Assembly: GCF_964213995.1 (NCBI RefSeq)
Contig: NC_135812.1
Location: forward strand, 14,012,001-14,076,000
DNA length: 64,000 bases
From: Mustelus asterias
Lineage: Eukaryota
Reading direction: 5' to 3'
Shown here piece by piece: positions 1-31,288 of this stretch. Both the position numbers and the translations under genes were made by a program. Positions within the stretch are counted from its first letter, which is position 1. Each line of letters begins with the position of its first letter. The notes under the pieces are model-generated. The model saw only the letters and a program-made list of their open reading frames with translations, did no database searches and had not been told where the DNA came from.

Positions 1-1036
1 CAAAAGCCTGGTTTGCAGGTGCAGTAGATAATTAAGAAGGCAAATGGAATTTTGTCCTTCGTTGCTAGAGGGATGGAGTTTAAAAACAGCGAGATTATGT
101 TGCAGCTGTATAAGGTGCTGGTGAGGCCACACCTGGAGTACTGTGTACAGTTTTGGTCTCCTTACTTGAGAAAGGATATAATGGCACTGGAGGGGATGCA
201 GAGGAGATACACTAGGTTGATTCCGGAGTTGAGAGGGTTGGCGTATGAGGAGAGACTGAGTAGACTGGGACTATACTCACTGGAATTCAGAAGAATTAGA
301 GGGCGGCACGGTAGCACAGTGGTTAGCACTGCTGCTTCACAGCTCCAGGGACCTGGGTTCGATTCCCGGCTTGGGTCACTGTCTGTGTGGAGTTTGCACA
401 TTCTCCTCGTGTCTGCGTGGGTTTCCTCCGGGTGCTCCGGTTTCCTCTCACACTCCAAAGATGTGCGGGTTAGGTTGATTGGCCATGCTAAAATTTCCCT
501 TAGTGTCCGTAGGTTAGAGGGAGTAGTGGGTAAATATGTAGGGATATGGTGGTAGGGCCTGGGTGGGATTGTGGTCGGTGCAGACTCGATGGGCCGAATG
601 GCCTCTTTCAGTGCTGTAGGGTTTCTAAGATTCTAAGAATGAGGGGGGGCGGGTTATAGAAACATACAAAATTATGAAGGGAGCAGATAAGATAGAAGCA
701 GGGAAGTTGTTTCCACTGGCAGGTAAAACTAGAACTAGGGAGCATGGCCTCAGAATAAGGGAGAGCAGATTTAGGACTGAGTTGAGGAGGAATGTCTTCA
801 CCCAAAGGGTTGTGAATCTGTGGAATTCCCTGCCCAGTGAAGCAGTTGAGGCTACCTCATTGAATGTTTTTAAGGCAAGGATAGATACATTTTTGAATAG
901 TAAAGGAATTAAGGGTTATGGTGAGCGGGCGGGTAAGTGGAGCTGAGTCCACGAAAAGATCAGCCATGATCTTATTGAATGGCGGAGCAGGCTCGAGGGG
1001 CCAGGTGGCCTACTCCTGCTCCTAGTTCTTATGTTC
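1..1036 (+). mobile_element. CR1-type LINE 3' fragment, interrupted by a SINE at 301-636
   Basis: LVRPHLEYCVQFWSP, FTQRVVNLWNSLP motifs; TTCTTATG tail. Confidence 0.92.
301..636 (+). mobile_element. tRNA-derived V-SINE (HE1-like)
   Basis: A/B boxes, V-domain, CR1-like tail; near-identical copies at 27981-28325 and 30595-30950. Confidence 0.9.
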
Positions 1037-1039
1037 TTA

Positions 1040-2170
1040 GCAAGGCAGCATTTGACCAGAGTGTGGCATCAAGAAATCCGACCAAAATTGAAGTCAATGG
1101 GGTTCAGGGGGAGAACTTGCTCCTGGTTAGAGCCATATCGAGCAGGAAGGAAGATGGGTGTGGTCTTGGAGGACAATCATTTCAGTCCCAGTACATCATT
1201 GCAGGAATTCCTCAGGGTAGTGTCCTATCGCTAATAAGTCTCTTCTCTTCCAGATGTGAGTACATCCTGTCCCTAAGAATCTTCTCCAATAATTTCCCCA
1301 CCACCGATGCAAGGCTCACAGGCCCGAATGTTAACTCGTCACGTGTCACCCCAACCTTCTTCAGCTGCTTCATCAATGACCTTCTCTCATAACGTCAGAA
1401 GTGGGAATGTTCACTGATGACTGCACAACATTCAACACCATTTGCAACTCTCAGATACTGAAGTAGTCCATGCCCAAATGCTGCAAATCTGGGCAACATT
1501 CAGGCTTGGGATGACACGTAACATTCGGGCCTGTGTGAGCCTTACATTAGTGGTGGGGAAATTATTGGAGAAGATTCTTATGGACAAGATATACTCACAC
1601 CTGGGAGAGAATAGGCTTATTAGCGATAGGCAGCATGGTTTTGTGAAGGGGAGGTCGTGTCTCACAAACTTGATTGAATTCTTTGAGAAAGTGACAAGAA
1701 AAATTGAGCAGGGCAGGGCAGTGGATGTTGTATACATGGACTTTAGTAAAGCCTTCGATAAGGTTCCTCATGGCAGGCTGATACAGAAGGTGAAGTCATA
1801 TGGGATTCAAGGTGAGCTGGTAAGATGGATACAAAACTGACTTGGGCATAGGAAGCAGAGAGTAGCAGTGGAAGTGTACTTTTCTAACTGGAGGTCTGTG
1901 ACAAGCGGTGTTCCACAAGGCTCAGAGCTGGGGCCTCTATTGTTTGTAATATATATATAAATGATTTGGAGGAAAATGTAGGTGGTCTGATTAGTAAATT
2001 TGCAGATGGTACAAAAATTGGGGGAGTAGCTGATAGTGAGGAGGATTGTCAGAGGATAGAGCAGGATGTAAACCAGCTGGAGACCTGGGCCAAAATATGG
2101 CAGATGGAATTTAACCCGGACAAATGTAAAGTGATGCGATTTGGAAGGTCTACTGCAGAAGGAAAGTATA
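1040..2170 (+). mobile_element. Degenerate LINE RT fragments (CR1/L2-group followed by CR1)
   Basis: QHGFVKGRSCLTNL, DFSKAFDKVPH, SKFADGTK motifs. Confidence 0.88.
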
Positions 2171-2668
2171 CAGTAACAGATGTAGAAAATGTACCGTCTA
2201 CAGTAGCAAAGTCATTGCACAGACCTTTCTCACTATCATTTTTACATCCTCCAGAGTATTTGCAAAGGTCACAAGAACTTAGCAAATTCTCCAAATTGGA
2301 AACTATGGAAAGTAAGTGACAAGCTGTCTCTCTTCCATTGAGATTGGAGCGAAACGTGGCACATTTGTACAGAATTCGAGTTTGTACAGCTACTTTCTCC
2401 TGACTGAAGCAGGTGATGAGAAAATAAAAGCCTTGGCAGGCAGGAAACATGTATTAAAGGTGAACCTTTGGGCCATCTTAATCTGAGGAACCAGGTTGGT
2501 TGTAAAATGGTTGCAATGTTAGTTGAATTAATGGACATTCTCACCGAATTGGCAAGAGAGGGAGTTGCGACATGAACATCTATCATAGGACCGGGATTCC
2601 CATGCGTGTTGACTTTATGAAACACAATTTCAAGCAAACGGCATCACTGGACTCTCCTCATCGCTTAC

Positions 2669-2995
2669 CCTCCACTTTTACTTGGATGTGACGTTTGATC
2701 GGTTTCTCCAAGCTGACATGCTCAACTCGACAGGTGTAGGTGACGCCATTGTCCCTGAGGGAGGCGACGAACCTGAAGAAACTGCTCATGTTGTAGGTGC
2801 CGTCTGTGTTCCGCCTGTGGGGCGAGAAGATGACGTTGGACATGTAGACGGGCAGCATGTGCCCCTCGCCCTGCTCCCGCAGCCACCTCACCGTCACGTC
2901 CAGCGGAAAATAGCGGCCTGCCTCACACATCAGCTTCTGCTCATCCCCCTCCTTCAGGGAGAGGGAATCAGGGCTCACTGAGACAATGGGTGACT
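2669..2995 (-). CDS. TAPBPL: Tapasin-family gene exon 5 (Ig C1 domain); TM/tail exons presumably left of the window
   Basis: CEAGRYFPLDVTVRW..DGTYNMSS..YTCRVEHVSL; 327 nt phase 1-1. Confidence 0.92.
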
Positions 2996-3554
2996 CTGCA
3001 AAGGAAGCGCCAAATCCACGATAAGTCACAACCAAACTGGACACACGTTCACATTTTATAGGCTCGCTAACACTCAAGGATTTCCCCGCCCCCACGGCAC
3101 GATTTCCGGCAGCGGGGACAGTTCACCATTGGCCACCAACGGGATGATGCGGTCCCACTAAAGTCCAATGGCGATTTGCGTTGCTCACCCACCGTGCCAC
3201 CTGGGAATGCGCCACTGGAGTTCACCTCCAGTGGGACCGGAAGATTCCGCCAGCGGGAAGGGCCGGAAAATCCCGCCCTAAGAACCTGAAGCTTTCAATC
3301 TCTTTAAATGGAATGAAATTGGAAGAATAGTCTTCCAATGTGAACATGACTCTGCAGTAACAAGTAAGGGGACCGACCAATTAAAAAAAAGTATTAAAAT
3401 AGTTTTTGAAAATAATCCTTTACGGTTTTCCTCAATTGCATGGTGATATTTTCACAATCATTATGTTACGCACACGCTTAAAAACGCTGGTGTTTAATGT
3501 ATCTGCAAGGAGCGTGTTTGAGAGTGAGAGGATTCAGACTGTAAAACTATCTAT

Positions 3555-4230
3555 GGGCGACTCGGTGGCACAGTGGTTAGCACTGCTGCCTCACAGCGCC
3601 AGGGACCCGGGTTCCCCCCTCTGTCTGTGTGAGTTTCCTCCGAGTGCTCCAGTTTCCTCCCCCAGTCCTGAAAGACGTGCTGGTTAGGTGTACTGGCCAT
3701 GCTAAATTCTCCCTCTGTGTACCCGAACAGGTGCCGGAGTGTGGTGGCTAGGGGCTTTTCACAGTAACTTCATTGCAAAAGTAAAAAAAAGTAAGTTTAT
3801 TTATCAGTCACAAGTAGGCTTACATTAACACTGCAATGAAGTTACTGTGAAAAGCCCCAAGTCGCCACACTCCAGCATCTGTTCGAGTACACTGAGGGAG
3901 TATTTAGCACGGCCAATGCACCCTAACCAGCAGATCATTCGGATGAAGCATAACTGGAAAGGGACAGCATTTGGAAGTTATTATTAAATGTGCTATCTTT
4001 CCATTTTTATTTTATTTATTATTATTGTCACAAGTAGGCTTACATTGACACTGCAATGAAGTTACTGTGAAAATGCCCTAGTCGCCACACTCCGGCACCT
4101 GTTTGGGTACACTGAGGGAGAATTTAGCATGGCCAATGCACCTAACCAGCTCGTCTTTGGACTGCGGGAGGAAACCGGAGCACTCGGATGAAACCCACGC
4201 AGACACGGGGAGAACGTGCAGACCCCTCAC
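3555..4230. mobile_element. Cluster of V-SINE variants with an alternative tail (head-to-tail and inverted)
   Basis: Shared ctccctcagtgtacccgaacag...gtaagcctacttgtgac tail in both orientations. Confidence 0.8.
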
Positions 4231-4363
4231 AGCGACAGTGTTAATGTAAGCGGCCGCTGTCATGTTCGACACTGTTCTGTCATCCCCAACGGATTCAAAT
4301 AGTCATTTCTCCTGGCCCATTCATGTACAAATGTTGATCAATGTATCGGATTTGGTATCTTAC

Positions 4364-4702
4364 CCATGACCTCCACCTCAATGGTCTGTGTTCCAAAGAG
4401 TGGAGGGACATACACGGAACAGGTGTAGGATCCCTCATCTTTAATGCCGATATTTCTAATGCGGATGGAAGCATTTCCGTTCTTGATTTGATCCATAAAT
4501 ACTTCAACTCCTTCCTCCAAGTGTTCAACCCGCTCATGTCGTCCATTGTAGGAGAACAGTTTCTTCTTGGTCCCTTTGTGTTGGTATCTCCAGTCAATGT
4601 TAAAGTCGGTACTGTGATCAATCTTGTAGCCGCAGTCCAGAACCAGGTCTTGCTTGAGTTTGGTTGTAATCAGTGGGGTGCTGGTATGTACAATGTAGCT
4701 CA
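4364..4702 (-). CDS. TAPBPL: Tapasin-family gene exon 4 (Ig V domain)
   Basis: LDCGY..WRYQHKG..GNASI..DEGSYTCSV; 339 nt phase 1-1 with AG/GT. Confidence 0.92.
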
Positions 4703-4804
4703 CTAACATGTAAAAAGAAAAGGCTATTTATCTTGCATTTCGCAACAATTAATTATTATTCATACCCAAGATAAAACCGCTTAAAATCCTATTTTCCTCA
4801 TAGA

Positions 4805-5445
4805 ATAGAATCATAGAATCCCTCCAGTGCAGAAGGAGGCCATTCGGCCCATCGAGCCTGTACCGACAACAATCCCACCCTATCCCCGTAACCCCACATA
4901 TTTACCCTGCTAATCCCCCTGACACTAGGGGGCAATTTGGCATGGCCAATCCACCTAACCAGCGCGTCTTTCGGACTGTGGGAGGAAACCGGAGCACCCG
5001 GAGGAAACCCACACAGACACGGGGAGAATGGGCAGATTCCGCACAGGCAGTCACCCGAGACTGATCGTGCCGCCCATCATTTCACAAATCCAGTCACATG
5101 GTGGCACAGTGGTTAGAACTGCTGCCAAGGTCCCGGGTTCAATTCCGACCTCAGGTGACTATCTGTGCGGAGTCTGCATGTTCTCCCCGTGTCTGCGTGG
5201 GTTTCCTCCGGGTGCTCCGGTTTCCTCCCACACTCCAAAGATGCGCGGGTTAGGTGGATTGGCCATGCTAAACTCTCCCTTAATGTCCCAAGATGTGTAG
5301 ATTAGATGGATTAATCATAGTAAATGTGTGGGGTTACAGGGATAGGGTGTTGGAAAGGGCCTGGATAAGATACTCTGTCAGAGAGAGTCGATGCTGACGT
5401 GATGGGCCGAAAGGCCTCCTTCTGCACTGTAGGGATTCTATGATT
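4805..5445. mobile_element. Two back-to-back V-SINEs (- then +)
   Basis: Similarity to the 301-636 copy. Confidence 0.85.
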
Positions 5446-5525
5446 CAGTATGTTGCATGGTTACTTACTTTGTTCATCCACGTTAATATTGATGGTTTTT
5501 AACACTCCCATGGAAGGCAGACATT

Positions 5526-5883
5526 NNNNNNNNNNNNNNNNNNNNNNNNNNNNNNNNNNNNNNNNNNNNNNNNNNNNNNNNNNNNNNNNNNNNNNNNNNN
5601 NNNNNNNNNNNNNNNNNNNNNNNNNNNNNNNNNNNNNNNNNNNNNNNNNNNNNNNNNNNNNNNNNNNNNNNNNNNNNNNNNNNNNNNNNNNNNNNNNNNN
5701 NNNNNNNNNNNNNNNNNNNNNNNNNNNNNNNNNNNNNNNNNNNNNNNNNNNNNNNNNNNNNNNNNNNNNNNNNNNNNNNNNNNNNNNNNNNNNNNNNNNN
5801 NNNNNNNNNNNNNNNNNNNNNNNNNNNNNNNNNNNNNNNNNNNNNNNNNNNNNNNNNNNNNNNNNNNNNNNNNNNNNNNNNNN
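5526..5883. other. Assembly gap
   Basis: Run of N. Confidence 1.
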
Positions 5884-6036
5884 GCGCGCACACATGCGCA
5901 CGCGCACACACATGTGCACACACACGTACACACGCATACACACATATGCACAGACACACGCACACACATGTGCGCACATGCACACACACGCACACGCACG
6001 CACACACACATACATGTACACATGCGCGCGCACACA
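5884..6036. repeat. Degenerate (CA)n microsatellite
   Basis: Alternating purine-pyrimidine tract next to the gap. Confidence 0.95.
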
Positions 6037-6097
6037 TATCTTTTTTTGCAGCACTCTCTCTGAAATTATCCCGGGTTGGTCTGCGTTTGAACATTAC

Positions 6098-6379
6098 CTT
6101 GAACTAACAGAGTGTCGGTATCACCAATGTCTGAAGCTTCGTCGTCCACATTTGCTTCACTGTGCTGGCCGTCAGGTGCTTCTACCTTCCTCACAAAGCT
6201 GGTCGCAATGAACCTGCTAGTTAAATGCTTTATCGTCACCGTGAACCATATGTCTGTAATGGCCTCCTTGCCCTGCTGCGGCCAGGGCACGTGGATGCCG
6301 TGGGTGGAGTACCTGCTGATTTCACATCCCAATTTGTCAGGCTGCTCACCCACATACTGGAAGATATCTAATGAAGACT
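6098..6379 (-). CDS. TAPBPL: Tapasin-family gene exon 3 (CEISRYSTHGIHVPWP...DIWFTVTI)
   Basis: tttacag acceptor, AG|GTAAT donor, 282 nt phase 1-1; CEISRY motif of the tapasin/TAPBPR family. Confidence 0.9.
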
Positions 6380-6448
6380 CTGTAAATAAGGAGGAAGGGT
6401 CGCATAATAATTAAACAGTACGTTCATAGGAAACGATGCAAACCATTC

Positions 6449-6820
6449 ATAAGTTCATAAGATATAGGAGCAGAATTAGGCCATTCGGCCCATCGAGTCC
6501 ATTCCGCCGTTCGATCATGGCTGATATGCTCCTCATCCCCATTTTCCTGCCTTCCCCCCACAACCCTTCAACCCCATTACCAATTAAAAATCTGTCTCAC
6601 TCCTCCTTAAAGTTACTCACTGTCCCAGCATCCACCGCACTTTGGGGTAGCGAATTCCACAGATTCACAACCCTTTGGGAGAAGTCGTTTCTCCTCAACT
6701 CTGTTTTAAATTCACTACCGCTTATCCTAAGACCTCTTGTCCTAGAATCCCCCAACAACAGGAAGCATCCGCTCCACGTCTACTTTATCCATACCTTTTA
6801 TCATCTTGTAAACCTTCACA
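6449..6820 (-). mobile_element. CR1 3' fragment
   Basis: Reverse complement of the CR1 3' end and tail. Confidence 0.8.
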
Positions 6821-7061
6821 GAAAGATGGGTCCCAGCACTAAACATACACATTTCTCTAATCCTCTCAACTTGTAAGATTCTGCAGATCTTTCCGCCGTC
6901 ACTTGTGATCGAGAAACAACCAGGGTATTCATGTATTTAAATATTACTCTTAAATCCCGAGTTATCTCTTTTTACACTGAAAATCTATCTCTCCAAATCA
7001 ACTTAATCAACACTACCAATTCCATTTGACCTGCTATTTTGAAATGACTGACTGAGTGTTC

Positions 7062-7582
7062 CTGTTGGGGAACACTTCAGAGGTCACGGGCATTCGGCCT
7101 CTGATCTTCGGTTAAGCATTCTCCAAGGCAGCCTTCATGACACACAACAGCGCAGAGTCGCTGAGCAGAGACTGATAGCCAAGTTCTGCACACATGAGGA
7201 CGGCCTCAACCGGGATCTTGGGTTCATGTCACACTATCTGTAACCCCCACAACTTGCCTGGGCTTGCAAAATCTCACTAACTGTCCTGGCTGGAGACAAC
7301 ACACATCTCTTTAACCTGTGCTTAACCCTCTCTCCACTCACACTGTCTGTACCTTTAAGACTTGATCACCTGTAAAGACTCGCATTCCAACCGTTATCTT
7401 GTAAATTGAGTTTGTGTCTTTATATGCCCTGTTTGTGAACTGAAATCCCATTCACCTGACGAAGGAGCAGCGAGCGCTCCGAAAGCTAATGGCTTTTTCT
7501 ACCAAATAAACCTGTTGGACTTTAACCTGGTGTTGTTAGACTTCTTACTGTGCTTACCCCAGTCCAACGCTGGCATCTCTAT
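7062..7582 (+). mobile_element. Penelope-like element 3' part (GIY-YIG C-terminus plus pLTR with hammerhead motif at 7453-7492)
   Basis: Homologous to 33696-34240; CTGACGA-GGAGC..GCTCC-GAAA. Confidence 0.85.
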
Positions 7583-8268
7583 ATCCTGTCGACATCAACA
7601 GGGACAAAGTAGAAAGGGTCGAGAGCTTCGAGTTTTTAGGTGTCCAGATCATCAACAACCTGTCCTGGTCTCCCCACGCCAACACTATAGTTAAGAAAAC
7701 CCACCAACGCCTCAACTTTCTCAGAAGACTAAGGTAATTTGGCATGTCAGCTACGACTTTCACCAATTTTTACAGATGCACCATAGAAAGCATTCTTTCT
7801 GGTTGTATCACAGCTTAGTATGGCTCCTGCTCTGCCCAAGACCGCAAGGAACTAGAAAACGTTGTGAATGTCACCCAATCCATCACGCAAACCAGCCTCC
7901 CATCCATTGACTCTGTCTACACTTCCCGCTGCCTTGGCAAAGTAGCCAGCATAATTAAGGACCCCACGCACTCCAGACATTCTCTCTTCCACCTTCTTCT
8001 GTCGGGAAAAAGGTACAAAAGTCTGAGGTCACGCACCAACCTACTCAAGAACAGCTTCTTCCCTGCTGCCATCAGACTTTTGAATCGACCTACCTTGCAT
8101 TAAGTTGATCTTTCTCTACACCCTAGCTGTGACTGTAACACTCCATTCCGCACTCTCTTCTTTCCTTCTCTATGAACAGTATGCTTTGTCTGTATAGCGC
8201 GCAAGAAACAATACTTTTCACTGCATACTAATACATGTGACAATAATAAATCAAATCAATTCAAATCA
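7583..8268 (+). mobile_element. Rex1/Babar-like LINE 3' fragment
   Basis: FLGVQI..LSWS..KNSFFPAAIRLLN; (ATCAA)n tail; related copies 17770-18160(-) and 26060-26630(+). Confidence 0.8.
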
Positions 8269-9084
8269 ATGAACACCGTTTCTCCCAAAAGACTTCTTCA
8301 GACTAATTATTGGCAATTGCATCCAATTTCTGTTTGAAACATGTCACCCTTATTGAGTAAGCTAAAGGTAAAGTTGCTATAGTCCCAGGCACTTGGCACT
8401 GACTGGTGGCGATTTTACTTGAGGGTCACCACACCTCAGGTAAGGGGCAAGGATGAGAAGGCAGCAACCTTCAAGAATAACCTCAGCCGGTACGGGAATT
8501 GAACCTGCCTTGCTGGCCTCACTAACCAGCTGTCCAGCCAACTGAGCTAAACTGACTGAGTGGACCAGCCCTGTCCCCACAAGCCTTGAGCAAAGAGCTG
8601 CCTATGTTATAATTTCACACGTTGTGCACATTTATTTCTTTTCCCCCGTTGAATTATTAGTCGTACCTTACCCTCTGTGACCCAGGAAGAATTGCATTTG
8701 TAGAACTCCTGCGGTGCAGAAGGAGGCCTTTCGGCCCATCTGGCCTGCACCGACTCTCCGGCAGAGCGTCCCACCCATTCACTGTAGTAATGCAGGAAAT
8801 GCGGCAACCAATTTACGCATAGCAAGCTCCCACAAACAGCAATGGGATACAGTAAACTCCTGTCCCTTACAGGGGGTTTCCATTCCCGCGAAACCCCGCG
8901 GTATGCGAATTGGCGAACCGCCACATGCGCAGAGTCAGTGCACGCACAGCGCACGCTTTCTCCGGAGGAAAGGTGACAGTTCAACATCTTAATCGCAGTT
9001 GAGTGAGTTTCGGGGCCGGTATTACATGTACAAATGCATCTGCGCGGGTTAATGATTTCACGATAGAGGAGGTCGTGAATCATA

Positions 9085-10450
9085 TAGAATCATAGAATCC
9101 CTACAGTGTAGAAAGAGACCATTCGGCCCATCAAGTCTGCACTGACCACAATCTTACCCAGGCCCTACTCCTGTAACCCCCACATTTTTACCCTGCTAAT
9201 CCTCCTGACACTAAGGGGCAATTTATCATGGCCAATCAACCTGACCTGCACATCTTTGGACTGTGGGAGGAAACCGGAGCACCCGGAGGAAACCCAGACA
9301 GACACGGGGAGAACGTGCAAACTCCACACAGACAGTGACCCAAGCCAGGAATCGAACCCGGGTCCCTGGCGTTGTGAGGCAGCAGTGCTAACCACTGGGC
9401 CATCGTGCCGCCCCACGGGAGTTTACTGTAATGATAATCTGTTTCGTGTCACCCCACCTGGCCCTCTTCAATATAGTACTATGGCCTCTCTTCCATCCAC
9501 CTGAAGGTAGGCTGAACCTCACTTTACCATCAAGACAATATCAGGCACTGCATACCCCATAGCAGTGAGCAGAGGGGTCACACTGTATCACAAATCTCCA
9601 ATACGGGACTTAAAACCACAATCTTCTAATTCAGGGGTACGGGTGCTACTCACTGGGTCATGGCAGATCTGCACAGCGAACAGAAGCTGTGATAATCTGT
9701 CCTTCACAGGATCATCATAGAATCCCTACAGTGCAGAAGGAGACCATTCACCTCATCAAAGTAAAGTTTATTTATTAGTGTCACAAGTAAGGCTTACATT
9801 AACACTCCAATGAAGTTCCACTGGTCGGCGCAACATCGAGGGCCGAAGGGCCTGTACTGCGCTGTAACGTTCTATGTTCTAAGTTACTGTGAAAATCCTC
9901 TAGTCGCCACACTCTGGCGCCTGTTTGGGTACACTGAGGGAGAATTTAGCATGGCCAGTGCTCCTAACCAGCACGTCTTTCAGACTGTGGGAGGAAACAG
10001 GAGCACCCGGAGGAAACCCACGCAGACACGGGGAGAATGTGCAGACTCCGCACAGACAGTGACCCAAGCCAGGAATCGAACCCAGATCTTTGGCCCTGTG
10101 AGGCAGCAGTGCTGACCACTGTGGCACCGTGCCGCTGCAGGGTATCTAGAACTAGGGGTCACTGTTTAAAAATAAGGGGGAACGCCCATTTAAAATAGAG
10201 ACGAGGCAAAATGTTTTCTCTCAGAGGGTCGTGAGTCTTTTGAACTCTTTTCCTGAGAATGCAGTGGAAGCAGATTCTTTGAATATTTTGAAGGCAGAGG
10301 TGGATAGAGTCTTGATAAGCAAGGGGGTGAAAGGTTATTGGAGGTAGGCAGGATGCATATTTGAGATTGAGATCAAATCAACCCTGATCTTATTTAATGG
10401 CAGGGTAGGCTTGAGGGGCCGAATGGCCTACTCCTGCTCCTTGTTCGTAT
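9085..10450. mobile_element. V-SINE copies (9085-9415, 9715-10135, minus) and CR1 3' end (10140-10450, plus)
   Basis: Similarity to other copies in the window. Confidence 0.8.
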
Positions 10451-10499
10451 GCTAGTATAATAAAATAAAGAAGGCAGGGCTTTCTATTACGAGTGTGGA

Positions 10500-10852
10500 A
10501 AGGCAATGGCCTAATGGTATTTTTGCTCGATTATTAATCCAAAAACTCAGCTAATGTTCTGGGGACCCGGTTTCAAATCCCATCACGGCAGATGGTGGAG
10601 TTTGAATTCAATAATAAAATATCTGGAATTAAGAATCTACTGATGACCATTGTCGATTGTCGGAAAAACCCATTTGGTTCAGTAATGTCCTTTAGGGAAG
10701 GAAATCTGCCATCCTTACATGGTCTGGATTACATGTGACTCCAGAGCCACAGCAATGTGGCTGATTCTCAACTGCCCTCCAAGGGTGACTTGGGATGGGC
10801 AATGAATGCTGGCCAGTCAGCGACGCCCATGTCCCACGTATGAGTACAAAAA
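10500..10852 (+). mobile_element. Second tRNA-derived SINE family (second copy 41210-41592)
   Basis: A/B-box head; tail shared with the LINE 3' end at 25240-25300. Confidence 0.75.
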
Positions 10853-10961
10853 AAATTAATTGTGGGGGAATAGAAAGGATTTCCCGAACCATTGCGGACA
10901 ATTACCCTCAATGTGGGAGATGCCCTCCAGAGAAAATAAATCGATGACCAAAGCACAATAC

Positions 10962-11141
10962 CTTGAAGTTTGAAAATAATGGCCTTCTCATTTCCACTCA
11001 GATCACCAGACAGAAGCAGGGCCTTCCTCTTGATGACTGTTGGTCCAAATACTTGCATCTCTTCACTTTGCATCTCATTCACAAACACGCAGTCCAGCTT
11101 TCTGTTTGGGACCGTGCGTCTATTCTGTGCCTGCACGATTG
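10962..11141 (-). CDS. TAPBPL: Tapasin-family gene exon 2 (N-terminal domain, LDCVFV...ALLL)
   Basis: tttctcaag acceptor, AG|GTATT donor, 180 nt phase 1-1; DC...ALLL motif typical of the tapasin N-domain. Confidence 0.85.
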
Positions 11142-11755
11142 CTTGAGAAATAAATAGAGGAGTTTAAAAGAAAAATTTCAACACCAACTGCATACTGTCA
11201 CTCCGCACATTGCACAGACACCTCACTGAATACCAAGTTGGATTACTTGCCATCTCTACATTGGTGATGATTGTTCTGCTTTCAAGTGCATCTTTTTCAT
11301 TAACCTCTTAAGTGTGGCTCGGTCATTAGCTTTTGTGCCTTGGTGCCATCATATTATGGGTTCAAGCCTTGTCCCAGGAACCCGAGCACGTAAGCCGGGC
11401 AATACTACTGCGCTCACTCAGTATTGCACAGCAGTACCGAGGTTTGGAACCAAAATGGGTGTGCAGAGTTAAGGTACAGATCAATCAAAGTTTCATTGAA
11501 ATGTGGAACAGCCTTGAAGGGCTGAATGGCCTACTCCTGTCCCCATGTTTCCCAACCCGGTGCAATTGGTTTCTGTATTGGACTAAGCATCATTACAGAA
11601 TTGCTATACATTGCAGAGAGGTTATAAACACTGCAAACCATTCCCCACTTATTTTCACCTGCACCCCTGCTACTATCATCAAGCAGTCTACATCCAATTA
11701 TCCAAACCAACACCTCCATCCAGGTCTTCCTCTACAAAGATTATAAAAAGACTTA

Positions 11756-12425
11756 AATAAAAGCAGAACACTGTGGATGCTGGAAATCTGAAATAAAAGC
11801 AGAAAATGCTGAATAAACTCAGCAGGTCTGGCAGCATCTGTGGAGGCAGAAACAGAGTTTTGCTTCCATTGAGCGCTGACCTTTGTTCTTCTATTAACAC
11901 ATTCTGCTATCCTCCCTTTTTAATTTTTTTAACTTCATCCTTAAAGTTACAAAGCCAATGCTCAGAATGGACCAGGCAAAACCCAAATCCATTCCTTGCT
12001 TGCTCCAAAAACCAAATTCAAAATCCAATTGAATCCAATTCATGGTCCCCACAAGAGAGACAAACAAGATCCAAGATGACAAGATGAGGCATTGCATCCC
12101 CATCTTGGGCTTGAATCTGACGCTTGATCTTAGCCAAAAGACTGACAAATCTTACCTTTATGCCACTATTAGCACTTCTTCAGTCCTTAATGCCACCATT
12201 AACACTCCCTTTGTCTTGTGTCCATGACATCTTTGTCAATCTCTCCTTAATTCCGACCTGTCCCTGACCTTCCATTCACCTCCCCACCACTATATAATCG
12301 ATGACATTTCTATCCTTCTTCAATTCTGTAGAATTGTCAGACAGACCCGAAACGTTAACTATGATTCTCTCTTCACAGATGCTGCCATTCCTGCTGAGTT
12401 TATCCAGCATTTTCTGGTTCTTTTT
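11756..12425. mobile_element. Penelope-like family B relic with inverted terminal repeats
   Basis: aaaatgctg..ctcagcaggtctggcagcatctgtg at the left, inverted at 12345-12420; related pieces at 16945, 23920, 32080, 36720, 59690. Confidence 0.65.
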
Positions 12426-13184
12426 GTTATCAAAAGACTTTATTGGTCTGCAACACTTTTGATGCACAGAACACTTTATTGTAACTCACGTCATTCAAGC
12501 AAAGCATTCCCTGGTTCCTGCACAGACCAATGTTGTGATTGCGTCGCTGAAGATTTTATCTGCTGGGCATTTCTTGTGAAATTGTAAATGCATTTCCTTA
12601 AAGGGTTTTTAAATTGAATAGGCAAAAAAACTGCCTTTATATAGCACAATATAGAATGACTAAGTAATCTACTTATGCCAAAATTGGTAAGGGGATTGAT
12701 GGTATATTAGGGAGAACTCCCTCTTTAAAATTACCATGGAATTTTTAACAGCTCTAAATGGGTTTACCCTTTCATTTATCATGGAAAATGACTGTTGACA
12801 GACCAGCACTCCTGCAGCACTGCACTCTCGTGTCAGTGCCCTGTGAACTCACAGAGGGATAGTCCAACCTCACTGATGCAAACTGATCTAAAGATACCAG
12901 GGTGAATCTTCACAAAGACGTTTCCAAGGTCATAACACATAACCGGATCGAGGAATGCTTATCCCAGTGACCCTTTACAGGTGTGATTTACAATGTTTGT
13001 GGGCTGCTAATCATTGTGGGGTCCTAAAAGCCATTATATTCTCCCGTCATTGACACAATGAGCCAATGGTTTTCTGACTTGTCTTAGAACCATAGAATCC
13101 CTGCAGTGCAGAAAGAGGCCATCCAAAGAGCATTCCACCCAGGCACCCCCTCCTCCATACTATCTCTGTAGCCCCTGCGCATTT

Positions 13185-13765
13185 ACCATGGCTAATTCAC
13201 CCAACCTACACATCTTTGGACACTCAGGGGCAATTTAACATGGCCAATCTACATAACCTTCACATTTTGGACACTAAGGGGCAATTTAGCATGACCAATC
13301 CACCTAACCTACACATCTTTGGACACTAAGGGGCAATTTAGCATGGCCAAACCATATAACCTTCACATCTTTGGACACTAAGGGGCAACTTAGCATGGCC
13401 AATCCACCTAACATGCACATCTTTCGACGCTAAGGAGCAATTTAGCATGGCCAATCCACCCAACATGCACATCTTTGGACGCTAAGGGGCAACTTAGCAT
13501 GGCCAATCCACCTAACATGCACATCTTTGGACGCTAGAGGGAAATTTAGCATGGCCAATCCACATAACCTAAATATCTTTGGACACTAAAGGGCAATTTA
13601 GCATAGCCAATCCATATAACCTAAACATCTTTGGACACCAAGGGACAATTTAGCATGGCCAATCCACTTCATCTGCACACCTTTGGACTGAATGGGGCAA
13701 TTTAACATGGCCAATCCACCTAACCTTCACATCTTTGGACGCTAAGGGGCAATTTAGCATGGTAA
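13185..13765. repeat. Approximately 52-bp tandem repeat (about 11 units) expanded from a SINE internal segment
   Basis: ggacactaaggggcaatttagcatggccaatccacctaacctacacatcttt units. Confidence 0.92.
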
Positions 13766-14916
13766 ATTCACATAAGAAGATTAAAGCGCATGGGATTGGG
13801 GGAAGTGTATTGAGATGGATAGAAAACTGGGTGACAGAGAGGAAACAAAGAGTAGGAATTAATTGGTACTTTTCAAATTGGCAGGTAGTAACTAATGAAG
13901 TGCCACAGGAGTCAGTGCTGGGATCCCAGCTATTCACAATATATGTTAATGATTTGGATGAGGGAACAAAATGTAACATCTCAAAGTTTACAGTTGATAC
14001 CAAGTTGGGCGGGAGGGTGAACTGTGACGAGGATGCAGAGATCCTTCGGAATGATCTGGACAGGTTGGGTGGGTGGGCTAATCAATGGCAGATGCAGTAT
14101 AATTTGGATAAGTGTGAGGTTATTCACTTTGAAAGCAAAAACAAGAAGGCAGATTACTATCTGAATAGCTGTAAATTGGGAGAGGGGAGTGTCCAACGGG
14201 ACCTGGGTGTCCTTGTGCACCAGTCGCTGAAGGTAAGCATGCAGGTGCAGCAGGCGGTAAAGAAAGCAAATGGCATATTGGCCTTCATTGCAAGAGATTT
14301 CAAATACAGGAGCAGGGATGCATTATTGCAATTACACAGGGCCTTGGTGAGGCCACACCTAGCGTACAGTGCGCAGTTTTGGTCTCATTTTCTGAGGAAG
14401 GATGTTCTTGCTCTCGAGGGAGTGCAGCGAAGGTTTACCAGGCTGATTCCGGGGATGGCGGAACTGATGTGTGAGGAGAGATTGACTAGGTTAGGATTGT
14501 TTTCGCTGGAGTTCAGACGAATGAGGAGGGATTTCATAGAGACTTATAAAATTCTAACAGGACTAGACAGGATCGATGCAGGGAGGATATTCCCAATGGT
14601 GGGGGAATCCAGAACCAGGGGTCACAATCTGAGGATTCAGGGTAGACCATTTAGGACGGAGGTGAGGAGACCTTTCTTCACCCAGAGAGTGGTGAGCCTG
14701 TGGAATTGATTACCACAGGAAGTAGTTGATGCCAAAAGATTGAATTTATTCAAGAGGCGGCTGGATATAGCACTTGGGTTGAATGGGATCAAAGGTTATG
14801 GGGAGAAAGCAGGATTAGGCTATTGAGTTGGACGATCAGCCACGATCATAATAAATGGCGGAGCAGGCTCGAAGGGTCAAATGGCCTCCTCCTGCTCCTA
14901 TCTTCTATGTTTCTAT
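13766..14916 (+). mobile_element. CR1 LINE 3' ~1.15 kb (RT C-terminal half, decayed)
   Basis: ORF 13735-14709 with a degenerate FADD (FTVD) motif; TTCTATG tail. Confidence 0.93.
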
Positions 14917-15035
14917 AACCTACACATCTTTAGACACTAACCTGTACATCTTTGGACTGTGGGAAGAAACCCACGCAGACACAAGGAGAACATACAGACT
15001 CTACAGTCACCCAAGGCTGGCGCTGTGAGGCACTG

Positions 15036-15250
15036 GATAAAAGCAAATTTTTTGCTGGAATTTGAAACCAAAAGAGAAAATGCTGGAAAATCCCAGCAGG
15101 TCTGGCAGCATCTGCAAGGAGAGGAAAGAGCTGACGTTTCGAGTCCAGATGACCCTTTGTCAAAGCTCTGACTCAAAACGTCAGCTCGTTTCCTCTCCTT
15201 ACAGATGCTTGCCAGACCTGCTGAGATTTTCCAGCATTTTCTATTTTGGT
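15036..15250. mobile_element. Palindromic Penelope-like family B mini-element inserted in a SINE
   Basis: 15068-15145 is the inverted repeat of 15170-15250; degenerate hammerhead at the centre. Confidence 0.75.
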
Positions 15251-15497
15251 GCTGTGAGGCAGCAGTTCTAACCACTGTGCCGCCCCCTTACAGTGTTGTT
15301 ATATTCAGTCTGGTTCTTTTGGCTGCTCCCACTAGTTACTTTAACCCTGCCATTTTCTCCTGTGTTTGCGCTGTCAGGATCCCCCGAGCATTTGTTAGTT
15401 TCACAATGGAAACCCCGCTTTCCGCGGCCAGTTTCCAACAACAACACAATCATGACATTAGACTCGGCTCTCCGTGTACTCGGTCTGATGTTCTTAC

Positions 15498-15543
15498 CGG
15501 CAGCAAGAATGGAAAAGAGTAGAAGGAATATTTTCCAATACAT
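15498..15543 (-). CDS. TAPBPL: Tapasin-family gene exon 1 (signal peptide MYWKIFLLLFSILAA)
   Basis: Kozak ccgccATG at 15543; hydrophobic leader; donor G|GTAAG phase 1 joins in frame to the next exon. Confidence 0.85.
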
Positions 15544-15589: not shown

Positions 15590-15601
15590 ACTTTCGCTTT
15601 C
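15590..15601 (-). promoter_or_regulatory. IRF-E/ISRE element upstream of the tapasin-family gene
   Basis: GAAAGCGAAAGT matches IRF consensus GAAA(G/C)(T/C)GAAA(G/C)(T/C), about 50 nt upstream of the ATG; adjacent kB-like AGGAAGTTCC at 15612-15621. Confidence 0.7.
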
Positions 15602-21401: not shown

Positions 21402-21869
21402 TTATTTGCTTTGATTTGCTCGATTCTTTCGTGTGGCTTCTTCAGCTTTACTCTGTCTCCACTCACAAATGTCTGCAAAGTCACAGTACCGACATTTCCA
21501 CGCCTCCTCGATATCCACGCCCCTGGCCTCCCTCTGGCCCTTCCAGAAGGAGCAATAGTGCCGCAGCTCGCTTTTAACCCACTCCTCTTCAAAGGGCACC
21601 ACTTCTGTTCCGATCACAGAGGCGTCCGCTTGGTAACAGTATTCGATCTTCAGGGTGTCGACGGTGGGGATCTCCGCGTACGTCAGGTTTAGCAACACTA
21701 AATCCAGAAGGTCGCCAAACGTGCTTACCGTATATCCCACACTCTGAGCGTGCGCGAGCACCTCTGACCCAAACGGCTGCTCTGTCCGTAAGCGGAGGTG
21801 GTGAGTGATGGTGTCCTTCTTCAGTTGGCCTTTGATCATCGCCTCAAAGAGAAGTTTGTATATGCTAAC
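21402..21869 (-). CDS. EXO5: EXO5 exon 6 (terminal; EEAWKCRYCDFADIC)
   Basis: Three C-terminal Fe-S cysteines, stop TAA; joined CDS 1203 nt. Confidence 0.95.
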   Translation of the reverse strand, partial: VSIYKLLFEAMIKGQLKKDTITHHLRLRTEQPFGSEVLAHAQSVGYTVSTFGDLLDLVLLNLTYAEIPTVDTLKIEYCYQADASVIGTEVVPFEEEWVKSELRHYCSFWKGQREARGVDIEEAWKCRYCDFADICEWRQSKAEEATRKNRANQSK

Positions 21870-23150
21870 CTGGTAATAAAAGGGATTTGATCTTATTAAA
21901 CGATAACAGCACAGAGACAAGATCACTCCGACATCTGTTTGTTAATCATTTCACACTCGAGGACGTCACTGGTTCCCCTAGTTTTGTGGCATAGATTGTG
22001 CCTGGACTACAAAGCAAGAAAAGCAAAGTGACTTTACAGCAGCAACCCATAACTTCATCCCAAGTGGACATTTGCCAAGGCATTTTGTCATTTAATGTGC
22101 CTGAATTGATTTAAACAGAACACAGCAGCACCAAGAAATAAATACTGCTGTTTAAACAGCGAGTTCTGGCATTGAAACATCTCCGAGGACAACATTTTGT
22201 AAAGTGCTAGAACTGTGAGGTAGAGAGGTCCACAGTCATTCTGCAGCTGCAGTGTCCCAAACATTAATGGGGAAATTGTTTGAGGGAGGAATATTAATAA
22301 GTGTATCAAAACTGAAGCAGTATTTCAATCAGATGCATTCAGGAACACGACCGACATTCCTACAGACTTAGAGAGAAACAGAGTCGCCTATTTCAAATAC
22401 ATGTACAATGCAAAATCATAGAATCACAGAATCCCTACAGCACAGGAGACGGCCATTCGGCCCATTGAGTCCGCACCGACCACAATCACAGCCAGACCCT
22501 ATTCCCACAACCCCACATATTTACCCTGCTCATCCCCCAAAATTAAGGGGCAATTTAGCATGGCCAGTCCACCTAACACACACACACATTTGCGGACAAC
22601 TGTGCCACCGTGCTGCCCAGAGATGGCTAGCTAACAGGAAACAGTTGGCAAAAGTGGGCGATTTTCTGGTTGGGAAGATGTAACAAGGGGTGTGCCACAG
22701 GGATCAGTGCTGGGGCCTCAACATCTTCCAATTTATATAAACGACTTGGATGATGGGACTGAAGGTGTGGTGCAGATAGGTAGGAAAGTAAGATGTGATG
22801 AGGACATCAGGAGACTACAAAAGGATATAGATAGGTTAAGTGAGTGGGCTAAGATCTAGCAAATGGAGCATAGAATCATAGAATCCCTATAGTGCAGAAA
22901 CAGGCCATTCGGCCCATTAAACCTGTACTAACAATCCCATGATGTGGAGATGCCGGCATTGGACTGGGGTAAACACAGTAAGAGTTTTAACAACACCAGG
23001 TTAAAGTCCAACAGGTTTATTTGGTAGCAAATGCCATTAGCTTTCGGAGCGCTGCTCCTTTGTCAGATGGAGTGGAAATCAATCCCACCCAGGCCCTATC
23101 CCTGTAACCCTGCATATTTACCCTGTCGGTCCTCCTGACAATAAGGGGGA

Positions 23151-23500
23151 ATTTTGTCATTTAATGGGACTGAATGTGATTTAAACAGAGCACAACAGCA
23201 CCAAGGAATAAATTCTACTGTTTAAACATCGAGTTCTGTCATTGAATCATCTCAGAGGACAACATTTTGTAAAGTGCTAGAACGGTGCGGTAGAGGGATA
23301 CACAGTCATTCTGCAGCTGCAGTGTCCCAATTCATCAACAGCACCAACCACGAAAAATCCCCTCCAGCTCTCCAAACACTGGCAACTCTCATACACGCTC
23401 TGCTGTACAAGGCACAACCATGTCACTTCTTTAGACACACCGTACAGCTGAATGGTCAGTCACAACGTCATTCACTACTAAAGCAGGCAGTTAGAGAGTT
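23151..23500 (+). pseudogene. Chimeric local duplication containing a partial EXO5 exon 5 pseudo-exon
   Basis: 23151-23330 copies 22082-22260; 23331-23500 copies 26984-27154. Confidence 0.9.
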
Positions 23501-24529
23501 TAGCATGGCCAATCCACCTAACCCACACATCTGATCAAACTGAATGGAATCTATATACAAAGATAGACTAAAAAGCTTTTGCAGGTAGAGGTTAGAAAGA
23601 AAGAACTGTATATTTAAAGGTTATCTATAAAGGAATACCTCATGGCATAGATATTTTCGTGGTTTTCCTTTCAAGGGTTTAAATAATAATATTTTCTTAA
23701 TATATTACGCTATAGAATGTTGTAGAATGGCCTGATCAGAGAATTTATCAAACAATTAAGAAACCTAAAATGGGGTCTGAGGCGATGCCACTTTTGAAGA
23801 ATGATCTAGTGGAAGCAAGAGGATACTTTCTAGTCGTTAAACAATTAATAAAGTTCTGAATTTATGGACACTTAAAACACCTTCTCAGCCTTCTGCATGT
23901 TCATTTACATTCCCTTTATCCAATTCCACCTCCCCTCCCTCACAGTAGAAATCACTGTTGACTCTTTCCTCTCAGCTCTGACGAAGGGTTATCCAGTCTC
24001 GAAACGCTGGCGCTATTCTCTCTCCATAGATGCTGTCAGACCAGCTGAGATTTTCCAGCAATTTTCTGTTTTTGTTCCAGATTCCAGCATCCACAGTATT
24101 TTGTGTTTATATTATTATAGAGTTCTTCTGTTTGTTATCTGGAGGACATTACTGAACATTTATTTAAATAAGTGAAGGCATTTTCAAGGGCGCAGGAAGT
24201 TGGGAATCACCAGACATTGATCTAACACTGTGATCAAGCTGAGGTCTAGTAGATTCCGGAGAATCCACAGGCAAGCAAATGAGAGGCAGCCAGAGGGAAG
24301 CTTGGAGACTGGAGTGGAGCAGTGGCCACCTGTGCCTTGCAGGGAGGGCTGGTTGTCTCACCTAGAAATGAGCATGCATGCAGGAACACCGAGAGTGGCA
24401 ACAAGTTCACAAGGTAGACCTGTAGAAAGCAAAGCTGCTGGGAGGCATCAGCCTTGTTCAAGAGAGGGGAACATATTAAAATATTTAAGTAGGAACAGCT
24501 AGCTCACTGATATCTGCAAGCAAGATGTC

Positions 24530-25300
24530 CAAGGCCCAACCATCTTCAGCTACTTTATCAAGTACTAGTTATCTTCAACAAGTGGGAATTTAACCAGCAT
24601 CCCTTGACATTCAATTACATTACCATTGCTGAATCCACCGCTATCACCATCGTAGGGGTTATCATTGACCAGAAACTAAACTGGATCAGCCATATAAACA
24701 CTGTGGCTACAAGAGCAGGCCAGAGGCAATGAATCCTGTGGTGAGTTACTCACCTCCTGACTCCCCAAAGCCTGTCCAATATCTACATGGTACTATCAGG
24801 AGTGTGACGGAATACTCTCCATTTACCTGGATGAGTGCAGCTCCAACACAAGAAACTCAACATCAACCTGGACAAACCAACCCGCTTGATTGACACCCTA
24901 TTCACAAACATTCACTCCCTCCACCACTGATGAACAGTGGCAACAGTGTGTATCATCTACAAGACGCACTGCAGGAACTCATCAAGGCTCCTAAGCAACA
25001 CCTTCCAAATCCATGACACCTACCATCTAAAAGGACAAGGGCAGCAGATACATGGGAACACCATCACCTGAAAGTTTCCCTCCAAGTCACTCACCATCCT
25101 GACTTGGAAACATATCATTGTTACTTCACTGGTGTTGGGTCAAAATCCTGGAACTCCCTGCCGAACAGCACGGCGGGTGTACCTACACCTCAGGGACTGC
25201 AGTTGTTCATGAAGGCAGCTCACCACCACCTTCTCAAAGGCAATTGGGGATGGGAAATAAACACTGGCCTAGCCAGCGACACCCACATCCCGTAAATTAA
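24530..25300 (+). mobile_element. CR1/L2-group LINE 3' fragment
   Basis: Decayed RT C-terminus, SKSWNSLPNS motif. Confidence 0.75.
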
Positions 25301-26881: not shown

Positions 26882-27054
26882 TTGTAAGTGATGACTTTTT
26901 CTTTGGGCTGCACTGGGATATGTTCGATTGCCGCGAGTTTTCAGTTCACGCAATTCCAGTTCTCCTTTGGAATTATAGCAGAGTTCATCAACAACACCAA
27001 CCACGAAAATCCCCTCCAGCTCTTCAAACACTGGAAACTCCCGTACACGCTCTC
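26882..27054 (-). CDS. EXO5: EXO5 exon 5 (REFPVF..GVVDEL..ELKT catalytic motif)
   Basis: RecB-type D...ExK motif; phase 1 to 0; GTAAGT donor. Confidence 0.93.
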
Positions 27055-27309
27055 CTGTACAAGGCACAACCCACGTCACTTCTTTAGACACACCGTACAG
27101 CTGAATGGTCTGTCACCACGTCATTCACTACTAGAGCAGGCAGTTAAGAGAGTTATCTGGCCCACCACTCAAATCCAACTGCCTTTCAGTTAGATTCAGC
27201 CTGCTCTGACCTGGATGCAGCTCACCACGGGGAAGCTTGCCACATTCTGAAAAAGCCAACACGACAACTTTTTTTAAAATAAATCACTCTCCATCCAGTA
27301 GGTCAGGCA

Positions 27310-28670: not shown

Positions 28671-28782
28671 CTACAAAACAAATTTCCTAGCTGGAGGAGT
28701 CCGAGATGCTTTGTGGCAAAACAAAAAGGAAAATGCGGAACATAGTAAAATATTTTATGACCTTCCAGTGCCTTTTACATAC

Positions 28783-28887
28783 CTGCTTGCAGGAACTGGA
28801 TCATTGAGAGGAGATTAAGCATCTTTACGGCCCATTTATCTTCCCGGCTCTCTACAGTTATTGGGACAATGTCTTGGACCTCCAACT
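28783..28887 (-). CDS. EXO5: EXO5 exon 4 (ELEVQDIVPITVESREDKWAVKMLNLL)
   Basis: Not in the ORF track; 105 nt, ttttag / AG|GTATGT, phase 1-1. Confidence 0.9.

Positions 28888-31257: not shown

Positions 31258-31288
<31 letters not shown>

What the first reader, a model, noticed from the sequence alone, without database searches (positions are those of the whole stretch)
2669..15543. Non-MHC-linked tapasin paralogue, probably the third lineage absent from mammals
Seen: five in-phase exons encode a leader, N-domain, IgV and IgC1, and the neighbours are EXO5-LIAT1-RFLNB. Established: tapasin lies in the MHC and mammalian TAPBPR lies near CD27/VAMP1, so this neighbourhood fits neither. The motif CEISRYSTHGIHVPWP resembles, from memory, the third tapasin-like lineage reported in fish and other non-mammals. 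Inference: this is a poorly characterised MHC-I editor/chaperone in the oldest lineage with adaptive immunity.
Basis: partly seen in the sequence, partly recalled or inferred. Interest (0 to 1): 0.7.

Follow-up and report, generated by a model that had tools for sequence, protein, structure and literature searches.

The report
Shark third tapasin-family gene, TAPBPL
This is an intact shark copy of TAPBPL, a known but functionally untested third relative of tapasin (the helper that loads peptides onto MHC class I), and it likely works as an interferon-induced class I helper held in the endoplasmic reticulum without docking on the TAP peptide pump.

Summary
The five exons are real (minus strand, GT-AG, all phase 1, 391 codons, no stop). 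Three more exons left of the window complete a 432-aa type I membrane protein with the tapasin fold. In a 38-row tree it sits in a third clade (100/100) with frog, bird and marsupial TAPBPL in the sense of Grimholt 2018. AU tests reject grouping it with TAPBPR or tapasin, and this genome has separate genes for both. All 140 MHC class I matches lie on another contig. Correction: marsupials have the lineage; only placentals are reported to lack it. Function is inferred. It keeps most MHC-I-gripping residues, a long editing loop, a di-lysine ER-retrieval tail and an IRF-type element 47-58 bases upstream of the ATG. It lacks the TAP-docking membrane motif and any spare luminal cysteine. It is therefore likely an interferon-induced, TAP-independent class I chaperone or editor (about 0.6). 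A modelled complex passed its score only by laying the cut N-terminus in the peptide groove, so I discount it. New member of a known kind; my searches found no paper on the shark gene, but this scan noted it four times on other DNA.

The parts
15590..15601 (-). IRF-E/ISRE-type element (two GAAA cores), 47-58 bases upstream of the ATG; predicted interferon-responsive element
   Evidence: Only match to GAAASYGAAASY in the 64 kb window, 0.22 expected by shuffles; first seen; the pattern is recalled
15498..15543 (-). Exon 1 coding part: most of the signal peptide
10962..11141 (-). Exon 2: end of leader and first half of the N-domain, with C33 and the editing-loop equivalent (residues 34-56)
6098..6379 (-). 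Exon 3: second half of the N-domain, with C94-E95 (TN3 equivalent) and the lineage motif
4364..4702 (-). Exon 4: IgV domain, with jack-hairpin D206/R208/Q210 and sequon N246
2669..2995 (-). Exon 5: IgC1 domain, with R343 (TC2 equivalent) and sequon N351
1..2668 (-). Part of intron 5. The gene runs on beyond the window's left end: exon 6 (membrane helix, G000:C12:14010708-14010800), exon 7 (14007514-14007530) and exon 8 (di-lysine tail end and stop, 14005460-14005474)
21402..31699 (-). Neighbour: EXO5 (two Pfam-matched exons; context only)
38234..43082 (+). Neighbour: probable LIAT1 (two open frames; name recalled, no family match; context only)
53522..55390 (-). Neighbour: refilin (FAM101 family) exons, likely RFLNB (context only)

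Best explanation
The gene is the intact shark orthologue of TAPBPL, the third tapasin-family lineage, and it likely encodes an interferon-induced MHC class I chaperone/peptide editor that would be held in the ER by a di-lysine tail and would work apart from the TAP peptide-loading complex. Shown: gene structure, lineage, three separate tapasin-family genes in this genome, location off the class I contig, and the residues present or absent. Predicted by modelling: the tapasin fold. Inferred steps: (1) IRF factors bind the upstream element and raise transcription with the class I pathway. (2) The protein enters the ER, forms three disulfides and is retrieved by COPI. (3) The N-domain and IgV hairpin grip the alpha2-1 helix and groove floor of empty or poorly loaded class I, E95 catches the residue at MHC position 84, and the loop at 34-56 competes at the F pocket. 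(4) With no TAP-docking helix and no spare cysteine for ERp57 or UGGT1, it acts alone, like TAPBPR but ER-retained like tapasin. Identity about 0.97; mechanism about 0.6.
For: Lineage: clade of 17 rows at 100/100, against 13 TAPBPR and 8 tapasin rows; AU rejects both alternatives. Profiles of the other two clades pick human TAPBPR (E 1e-157) and human tapasin (E 7e-76) in the PDB, while this clade's best is 2e-41. The genome's own TAPBPR (C3701) and tapasin (C931) fall in the other clades. Fold: AlphaFold2 pLDDT 82.5; tapasin and TAPBPR entries take ranks 1-12 (3f8u Z 25.1, rmsd 3.1, 316 aligned; 5opi Z 23.2, rmsd 3.4, 312 aligned). MHC-gripping residues: E95, D/E206, R208 and R/K343 in 7 of 7 and Q210 in 6 of 7 cartilaginous-fish TAPBPL rows; their role in TAPBPR and tapasin is from PMC7117912 and PMC10040737 (passages). 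Tail: Lys at -3 and Tyr at -1 in 17 of 17 TAPBPL rows, second Lys at -5 in 16 of 17; KKxx/KxKxx as a COPI signal from PMC3437018. No TAP motif: the GPSxED stalk pattern is in 7 of 8 tapasin rows and 0 of 17 TAPBPL rows, and the membrane helix has no Lys. Six luminal cysteines only, in 7 of 7 cartilaginous rows. Interferon: upstream element; salmon TAPBPL1a and TAPBPL2 rise with IFN-gamma (log2 2.55, 3.90) and virus (2.02, 2.09) in PMC12234341 Table 4.
Against: No binding, editing or localisation experiment was found for any TAPBPL; a 2022 review and a 2025 paper call the role unknown or undefined. The fourth TN6 residue (TAPBPR Q272 / tapasin Q261) is Gln in 13 of 13 TAPBPR and 7 of 7 tapasin rows but in 0 of 7 cartilaginous TAPBPL rows (T274 here), and Q261A lowers class I surface expression for tapasin. 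The hairpin residues are lost in tetrapod TAPBPL (0 of 6, 0 of 6, 1 of 6), so the family may not keep one client. The loop sequence is poorly conserved beyond cartilaginous fish. The upstream element is one 12-mer found after scanning seven patterns, the transcription start is unknown, and 19 of 100 shuffles gave a match somewhere in the window. No human tapasin or TAPBPR sequence was in the tree itself.
Confidence: 0.62

Rival explanations
1. It is TAPBPL, but its clients are non-classical class I (or class I-like) molecules, which it holds and folds without peptide editing.
For: This genome has 140 class I exon matches on one contig; many of the alpha1/alpha2 exons read lack peptide-anchor residues. 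The invariant Gln of the other two lineages is replaced. A TAPBPR-MR1 complex model is in the PDB listing.
Against: E95 and the hairpin residues used on classical class I are kept. The salmon orthologues are induced together with the classical pathway.
Confidence: 0.22
2. It is a cycling ER-Golgi retrieval or cargo receptor. The di-lysine plus terminal aromatic tail resembles ERGIC-53/VIP36-type tails (recalled), so it would catch badly loaded class I that escapes the ER and return it. This can coexist with the best explanation.
For: Terminal Tyr in 17 of 17 TAPBPL rows and 0 of 19 database TAPBPR and tapasin rows; the tail is the most fixed feature from sharks to marsupials even where the MHC-gripping hairpin is lost.
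Against: The comparison with lectin tails is from memory; no trafficking data. A proline before the Tyr differs from the double-aromatic export signals I recall.
Confidence: 0.2
3. It is a B7-like cell-surface ligand rather than a chaperone.
For: B7-H6 is the next-best fold match after tapasin/TAPBPR and the next-best sequence match after TAPBPR. A protein called TAPBPL, which I read as TAPBPR under its human symbol, has been reported as a T-cell co-inhibitory molecule (PMC8103088; search listing and abstract start only).
Against: Conserved ER-retrieval tail, full tapasin-type N-domain, retained class I contact residues.
Confidence: 0.05
4. It is a divergent TAPBPR orthologue, as the database name suggests.
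For: NCBI names it 'tapasin-related protein-like'; the best PDB sequence match of its profile is TAPBPR.
Against: AU p 1.5e-38. It lacks the HxDC motif found in 13 of 13 TAPBPR rows. The genome has its own TAPBPR gene. Identity is 23-27% to TAPBPR rows against 30-42% to bony-vertebrate TAPBPL rows.
Confidence: 0.02

Closest known systems
TAPBPL in the sense of Grimholt 2018 (PMC5824609; teleosts, gar, frog, turtle, alligator, birds, opossum). Not the human gene symbol TAPBPL, which names TAPBPR.
   Same: Same clade, same motif after the second cysteine, same basic tail ending in K-P-Y, six core cysteines, no membrane lysine, sequon at the tapasin N233 position.
   Different: Cartilaginous fish are not among the paper's listed species. 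The extra N-domain cysteine the paper noted in fish and birds is absent (V123 here; 0 of 7 cartilaginous rows). The MHC-gripping hairpin is intact here but eroded in tetrapods.
Tapasin (TAPBP)
   Same: Same three-domain fold (Z 25.1, rmsd 3.1, 316 aligned to 3f8u), di-lysine tail, N233-equivalent sequon, TN3 and three of four TN6 residues.
   Different: Not on the class I contig; no GPSxED stalk or membrane lysine; no C95 equivalent; longer loop (24 residues from the first Cys to the next strand, against 18 in human tapasin, counted on the alignment); no Q261 equivalent.
TAPBPR (human symbol TAPBPL)
   Same: Same fold (5opi Z 23.2, rmsd 3.4, 312 aligned), long loop (24 against 23 residues), jack hairpin, no TAP-docking motif.
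   Different: No HxDC cysteine (the UGGT1-linked C94); conserved ER-retrieval tail; no Q272 equivalent; separate clade and locus.
B7-H6 (NCR3LG1)
   Same: Related IgV-IgC1 pair (28% identity, Z 16.6, rmsd 2.2, 205 aligned).
   Different: B7-H6 has no tapasin N-domain and is a surface ligand.

Membership tests
Tapasin family | Leader, N-domain, IgV, IgC1, one membrane helix, six core cysteines | tested here: met
Tapasin family | Fold matches tapasin/TAPBPR over all three luminal domains | tested here: met
   Predicted model; ranks 1-12 and 1-11
TAPBPL (Grimholt 2018) | Groups with named TAPBPL sequences, apart from tapasin and TAPBPR | tested here: met
   100/100 clade including the frog protein whose isoform matches, by eye, the sequence printed in the paper's supplement
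TAPBPL (Grimholt 2018) | Y-x-T-x6-W-P motif after the second cysteine | tested here: met
   My pattern matched 16 of 17 TAPBPL rows and 0 of 21 others; fish rows seen
TAPBPL (Grimholt 2018) | ER-retention-type basic tail and no membrane lysine | tested here: met
TAPBPL (Grimholt 2018) | Extra N-domain cysteine (noted in the paper but missing from its own frog, turtle and opossum rows, so not universal and not treated as defining) | tested here: not met
   V123
TAPBPL (Grimholt 2018) | Shared gene neighbourhood with bony-vertebrate TAPBPL | not testable with these tools
   Only this genome's neighbours could be read
Tapasin (TAPBP) | Groups with tapasin orthologues | tested here: not met
   AU p 7e-39
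Tapasin (TAPBP) | Linked to the MHC | tested here: not met
   Gene on C12; 140 of 140 class I matches on C8
Tapasin (TAPBP) | Stalk and membrane motif for TAP (F397/F401/G405/K408/W412) | tested here: not met
TAPBPR | Groups with TAPBPR orthologues | tested here: not met
   AU p 1.5e-38
TAPBPR | HxDC motif with the free cysteine C94 | tested here: not met
   13 of 13 TAPBPR rows, 0 of 17 TAPBPL rows
MHC class I peptide editors (function) | Conserved class I contact residues TN3, TN6, TC2 | tested here: inconclusive
   TN3, three of four TN6 and TC2 kept; Q272/Q261 position replaced
MHC class I peptide editors (function) | Binds class I in the editor geometry | tested here: inconclusive
   The modelled interface was the cut N-terminus in the peptide groove, not the editor interface
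MHC class I peptide editors (function) | Catalyses peptide exchange | not testable with these tools
   Needs a bench assay

The most novel reading that the evidence does not exclude
TAPBPL is the earliest-branching tapasin lineage, already outside the MHC-type regions in the ancestor of jawed vertebrates. In sharks it is still a working, interferon-induced, stand-alone class I editor that cycles between ER and Golgi on its lysine-tyrosine tail; its MHC-gripping surface decayed in tetrapods before placentals lost the gene. The shark protein would then be the best living model of the ancestral peptide editor that predates coupling to TAP. The basal position rests on a rooted tree with SH-aLRT 90, unstarred, with long-branch outgroups.
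Probability: 0.25. Interest if true: 0.65.

Novelty: new member of a known kind. Interest (0 to 1): 0.36.

Why it matters
It puts all three tapasin-family genes in one shark genome, so the third lineage is as old as jawed vertebrates; the 2018 description listed only bony vertebrates. The function of TAPBPL is an openly stated gap. Shark and fish copies keep the class I contact surface that tetrapod copies have lost, and a solved class I structure close to the shark's own exists (6LUP; recalled as nurse shark), so the shark protein is a practical place to test what this lineage does. The gene is in public annotation under a misleading name and was noted four times on other genomes in this scan, so surprise is limited.

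Tried and rejected
Complex prediction. Residues 23-392 were folded with the alpha1, alpha2 and alpha3 exons of a classical-looking class I gene of this genome as separate chains, without beta2m or peptide; the alignments were not used. Score 0.63, best of 3 controls 0.02; the mark was reached by 51 of 78 solved complexes and 2 of 108 mismatched pairs (eukaryote set: 39 of 65 and 2 of 126); runs agree in at least 44% of contacts; partner pLDDT at least 58. I reject it as evidence. The only confident partner residues are 23-33, the end I cut, and they touch the class I peptide-anchor residues (equivalents of Y7, Y59, R84, T143, K146, W147, Y159, W167; numbering recalled). The model filled an empty groove with a free terminus; the hairpin and IgC contacts of tapasin/TAPBPR do not appear, and related complexes are solved, so memory is also possible.

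LIAT1: no Pfam match; the Atlas gave no answer. RPH3AL: no FYVE_2 match near the gene; the only C12 match is weak and 13 Mb away. Exon 3 alone found no tapasin-family chain in the PDB. The third homologue search returned mostly bird TAPBPR and no protein named as mammalian tapasin among the 120 of 144 listed. Absence in placentals was not properly tested: none named among 21 hits, a search limited by shared words. A sequence look-up among earlier findings returned nothing. An alternative donor on exon 7 would add three residues but does not match the database protein.
Full report
OBSERVATION. The gene lies on the minus strand. Exons 15498-15543, 10962-11141, 6098-6379, 4364-4702 and 2669-2995 have canonical splice sites, all junctions are phase 1, and they give 391 codons without a stop. 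This equals the start of database protein P0001, 432 aa, named 'tapasin-related protein-like [Mustelus asterias]'. The window is G000:C12:14012001-14076000. Three further exons lie left of the window (membrane helix, two tail exons); all eight reproduce P0001 exactly. The 358 N lie in intron 3. A search of the genome with P0001 returned these exons, two other tapasin-family loci and weaker Ig matches (20 matches, 97 of 178 candidates scored), so no second copy was seen.

LINEAGE. Grimholt 2018 (PMC5824609; main-text passages and two supplement parts read) defined a third lineage, TAPBPL, in teleosts, gar, frog, turtle, alligator, birds and marsupials, apparently lost in placentals. I gathered relatives, named 20 of them and chose 36 database proteins out of about 320 held, leaving out most bird TAPBPRs, fragments and multi-Ig proteins. 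I added this genome's two other loci and labelled the rows from names and motifs before building the tree. In that tree (38 rows, 431 columns) the protein sits in a clade of 17 rows at 100/100 with shark, ray, chimaera, lungfish, sturgeon, teleost, frog, caecilian, condor and marsupial proteins; the internal order roughly follows the species tree. TAPBPR (13 rows, 100/100) and tapasin (8 rows, 100/98) are separate. On 35 rows (three partial ones dropped; LG+G4), forcing the protein into TAPBPR or tapasin is rejected (p-AU 1.5e-38 and 7e-39). Human sequences were not in the tree; the two other clades were anchored by PDB profile searches (TAPBPR E 1.5e-157, tapasin E 6.7e-76) and by colugo and platypus TAPBPR. 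This genome has its own TAPBPR (five in-frame exons on C3701) and tapasin (IgC and membrane exons at the end of C931). A tree of the two Ig domains rooted on a B7-H6 protein and an unnamed multi-Ig protein puts TAPBPL outside tapasin plus TAPBPR, but only at SH-aLRT 90 with a long-branch warning.

LOCATION. All 140 MHC class I matches lie on C8 (150 of 156 candidates scored); the gene is on C12. Order along C12: a Rap-GAP gene about 60 kb to the left, this gene, EXO5, probable LIAT1, a refilin, then VPS53 about 170-240 kb beyond the window. From memory this resembles human 17p13.3, which is not one of the MHC paralogous regions. The 'tapbpl' of Verissimo 2023 (PMC10751288; passages and supplement rows) is placed in MHC paralogon 12, with CD4 and LAG3 in reedfish, so I read it as TAPBPR; its supplement has no LIAT1, RFLNB or EXO5 entry.

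ANATOMY. The AlphaFold2 model (17 sequences, pLDDT 82.5, pTM 0.71) matches tapasin and TAPBPR over all three luminal domains. The segment at 40-49 is a low-confidence loop where the scoop/editing loop lies. From C33 to the next strand there are 24 residues, against 23 in human TAPBPR and 18 in human tapasin (counted on the alignment), with V46/F47 near the place of the loop leucine; tapasin L18 mutants lose activity (PMC10040737, passages). Contact residues, mapped through and counted: E95 (TN3) 7 of 7 cartilaginous rows, 3 of 4 bony fish, 3 of 6 tetrapods; D/E206 7/7, 3/4, 0/6; R208 7/7, 3/4, 0/6; Q210 6/7, 4/4, 1/6; R/K343 17/17. The fourth TN6 position is Gln in all 20 TAPBPR and tapasin rows that cover it, but in 0 of 7 cartilaginous rows. 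TN3 and TN6 mutants of TAPBPR lose editing activity (PMC7117912, passages). The ectodomain has six cysteines, so none is free for ERp57 or UGGT1. The membrane helix lacks the tapasin stalk and lysine (candidate TAP residues from PMC3437018, passages). The tail has Lys at -3, -4 and -5 and a terminal Tyr; Lys -3 and Tyr -1 hold in 17 of 17 TAPBPL rows, and KKxx/KxKxx is a COPI retrieval signal.

REGULATION AND EXPRESSION. An element with two GAAA cores lies 47-58 bases upstream of the ATG. It is the only match to the recalled IRF consensus in the window, with 0.22 expected. By my arithmetic a chance match within 200 bases of the ATG is about 1 in 1,400, or about 1 in 200 after allowing for seven patterns. 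ISREs as paired GAAA cores are described in PMC7819612 (passages). Salmon TAPBPL1a and TAPBPL2 are induced by IFN-gamma and by virus (PMC12234341, passages with Table 4). Two relatives come from contigs of 1,874 and 1,801 bases that hold 390- and 410-aa products, which implies spliced transcripts in related animals (inference). Splicing in this animal was not checked against reads.

MECHANISM. Most likely an interferon-induced, ER-retrieved, stand-alone chaperone/editor of class I (about 0.6): TAPBPR-like in lacking TAP docking, tapasin-like in its tail. Rivals: non-classical clients only (0.22), a cycling retrieval receptor (0.2, partly compatible), a surface B7-like ligand (0.05), a divergent TAPBPR (0.02). 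The complex job scored 0.63 against a best control of 0.02 (mark reached by 51 of 78 solved and 2 of 108 mismatched pairs; runs agree in at least 44% of contacts; partner pLDDT at least 58). Its interface is only residues 23-33 lying in the empty peptide groove, so it says nothing about editor binding and I give it no weight.

NOVELTY. The lineage is known, and reviews list it with no functional data (PMC9586880, PMC9372762; passages). Seven searches showed no paper on a cartilaginous-fish TAPBPL or its neighbourhood (one search listed only 25 of 449); the library lacks most subscription papers and bioRxiv supplements are closed. PMC6523485 and PMC13262535 (passages) added nothing on it. Four earlier notes of this scan report the same gene in two sharks, a sawfish and a skate; they are AI notes, mostly unreviewed, and not independent support. 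I found the upstream element before reading them, and ran the tetrapod count and the Rap-GAP search after. Verdict: real, correctly read apart from 'absent from mammals'; new member of a known kind; interest 0.36.

Noticed in passing
G000:C3701:9137-20717 (-), loci L032-L034: This genome's TAPBPR: five in-frame exons with the HxDC motif, on a 27.8 kb unplaced contig; leader and tail end not traced.
   Followed up: partly
G000:C931:135831-136981 (-), locus L035: This genome's tapasin: IgC and membrane exons at the contig end, with the GPSxED-type stalk and membrane lysine; upstream exons run off the contig.
   Followed up: partly
L036:326-928 (+), G000:C931 about 117.5-118.1 kb: Ankyrin-repeat exon about 18 kb from tapasin; from memory it resembles GPANK1, an MHC gene, which would make C931 an unplaced piece of the MHC. 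Pfam shows only ankyrin.
   Followed up: partly
G000:C8:21.6-43.4 Mb (one match at 3.7 Mb): 140 class I exon matches, with near-identical blocks at 22.6-24.7 Mb; many exons read lack peptide-anchor residues, and the alpha1 exons in L049 and L068/L076 appear frameshifted.
   Followed up: no
L073:4156-7628 (+): A class I gene that keeps the peptide-anchor residues; best PDB match of its alpha2 exon is 6LUP (E 7e-35). Candidate classical gene.
   Followed up: partly
window 15720-16745: About 1 kb of purine-rich tandem repeats directly upstream of the short promoter that holds the IRF-type element.
   Followed up: no
window 13190-13760: Array of about 41-base copies in intron 1, followed by a LINE reverse-transcriptase fragment (name recalled).
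   Followed up: no
P0009: A database isoform from an epaulette shark lacks the second half of exon 3, which would break the N-domain; may be a prediction artefact.
   Followed up: no
P0070, P0167: Strongly diverged, teleost-like TAPBPL proteins that do not end in the di-lysine tail; possibly a second copy in some fish. Not in the tree.
   Followed up: no
G000:C13:80.08-80.10 Mb: Second refilin gene, likely RFLNA.
   Followed up: no
L047:486-497 / L077:6674-6685 and L030:2531-2542: The same IRF-type pattern occurs at one site in or beside a class I gene on C8 (seen in two overlapping loci) and in one Ig-domain locus on C8; 3 of 81 loci matched.
   Followed up: no
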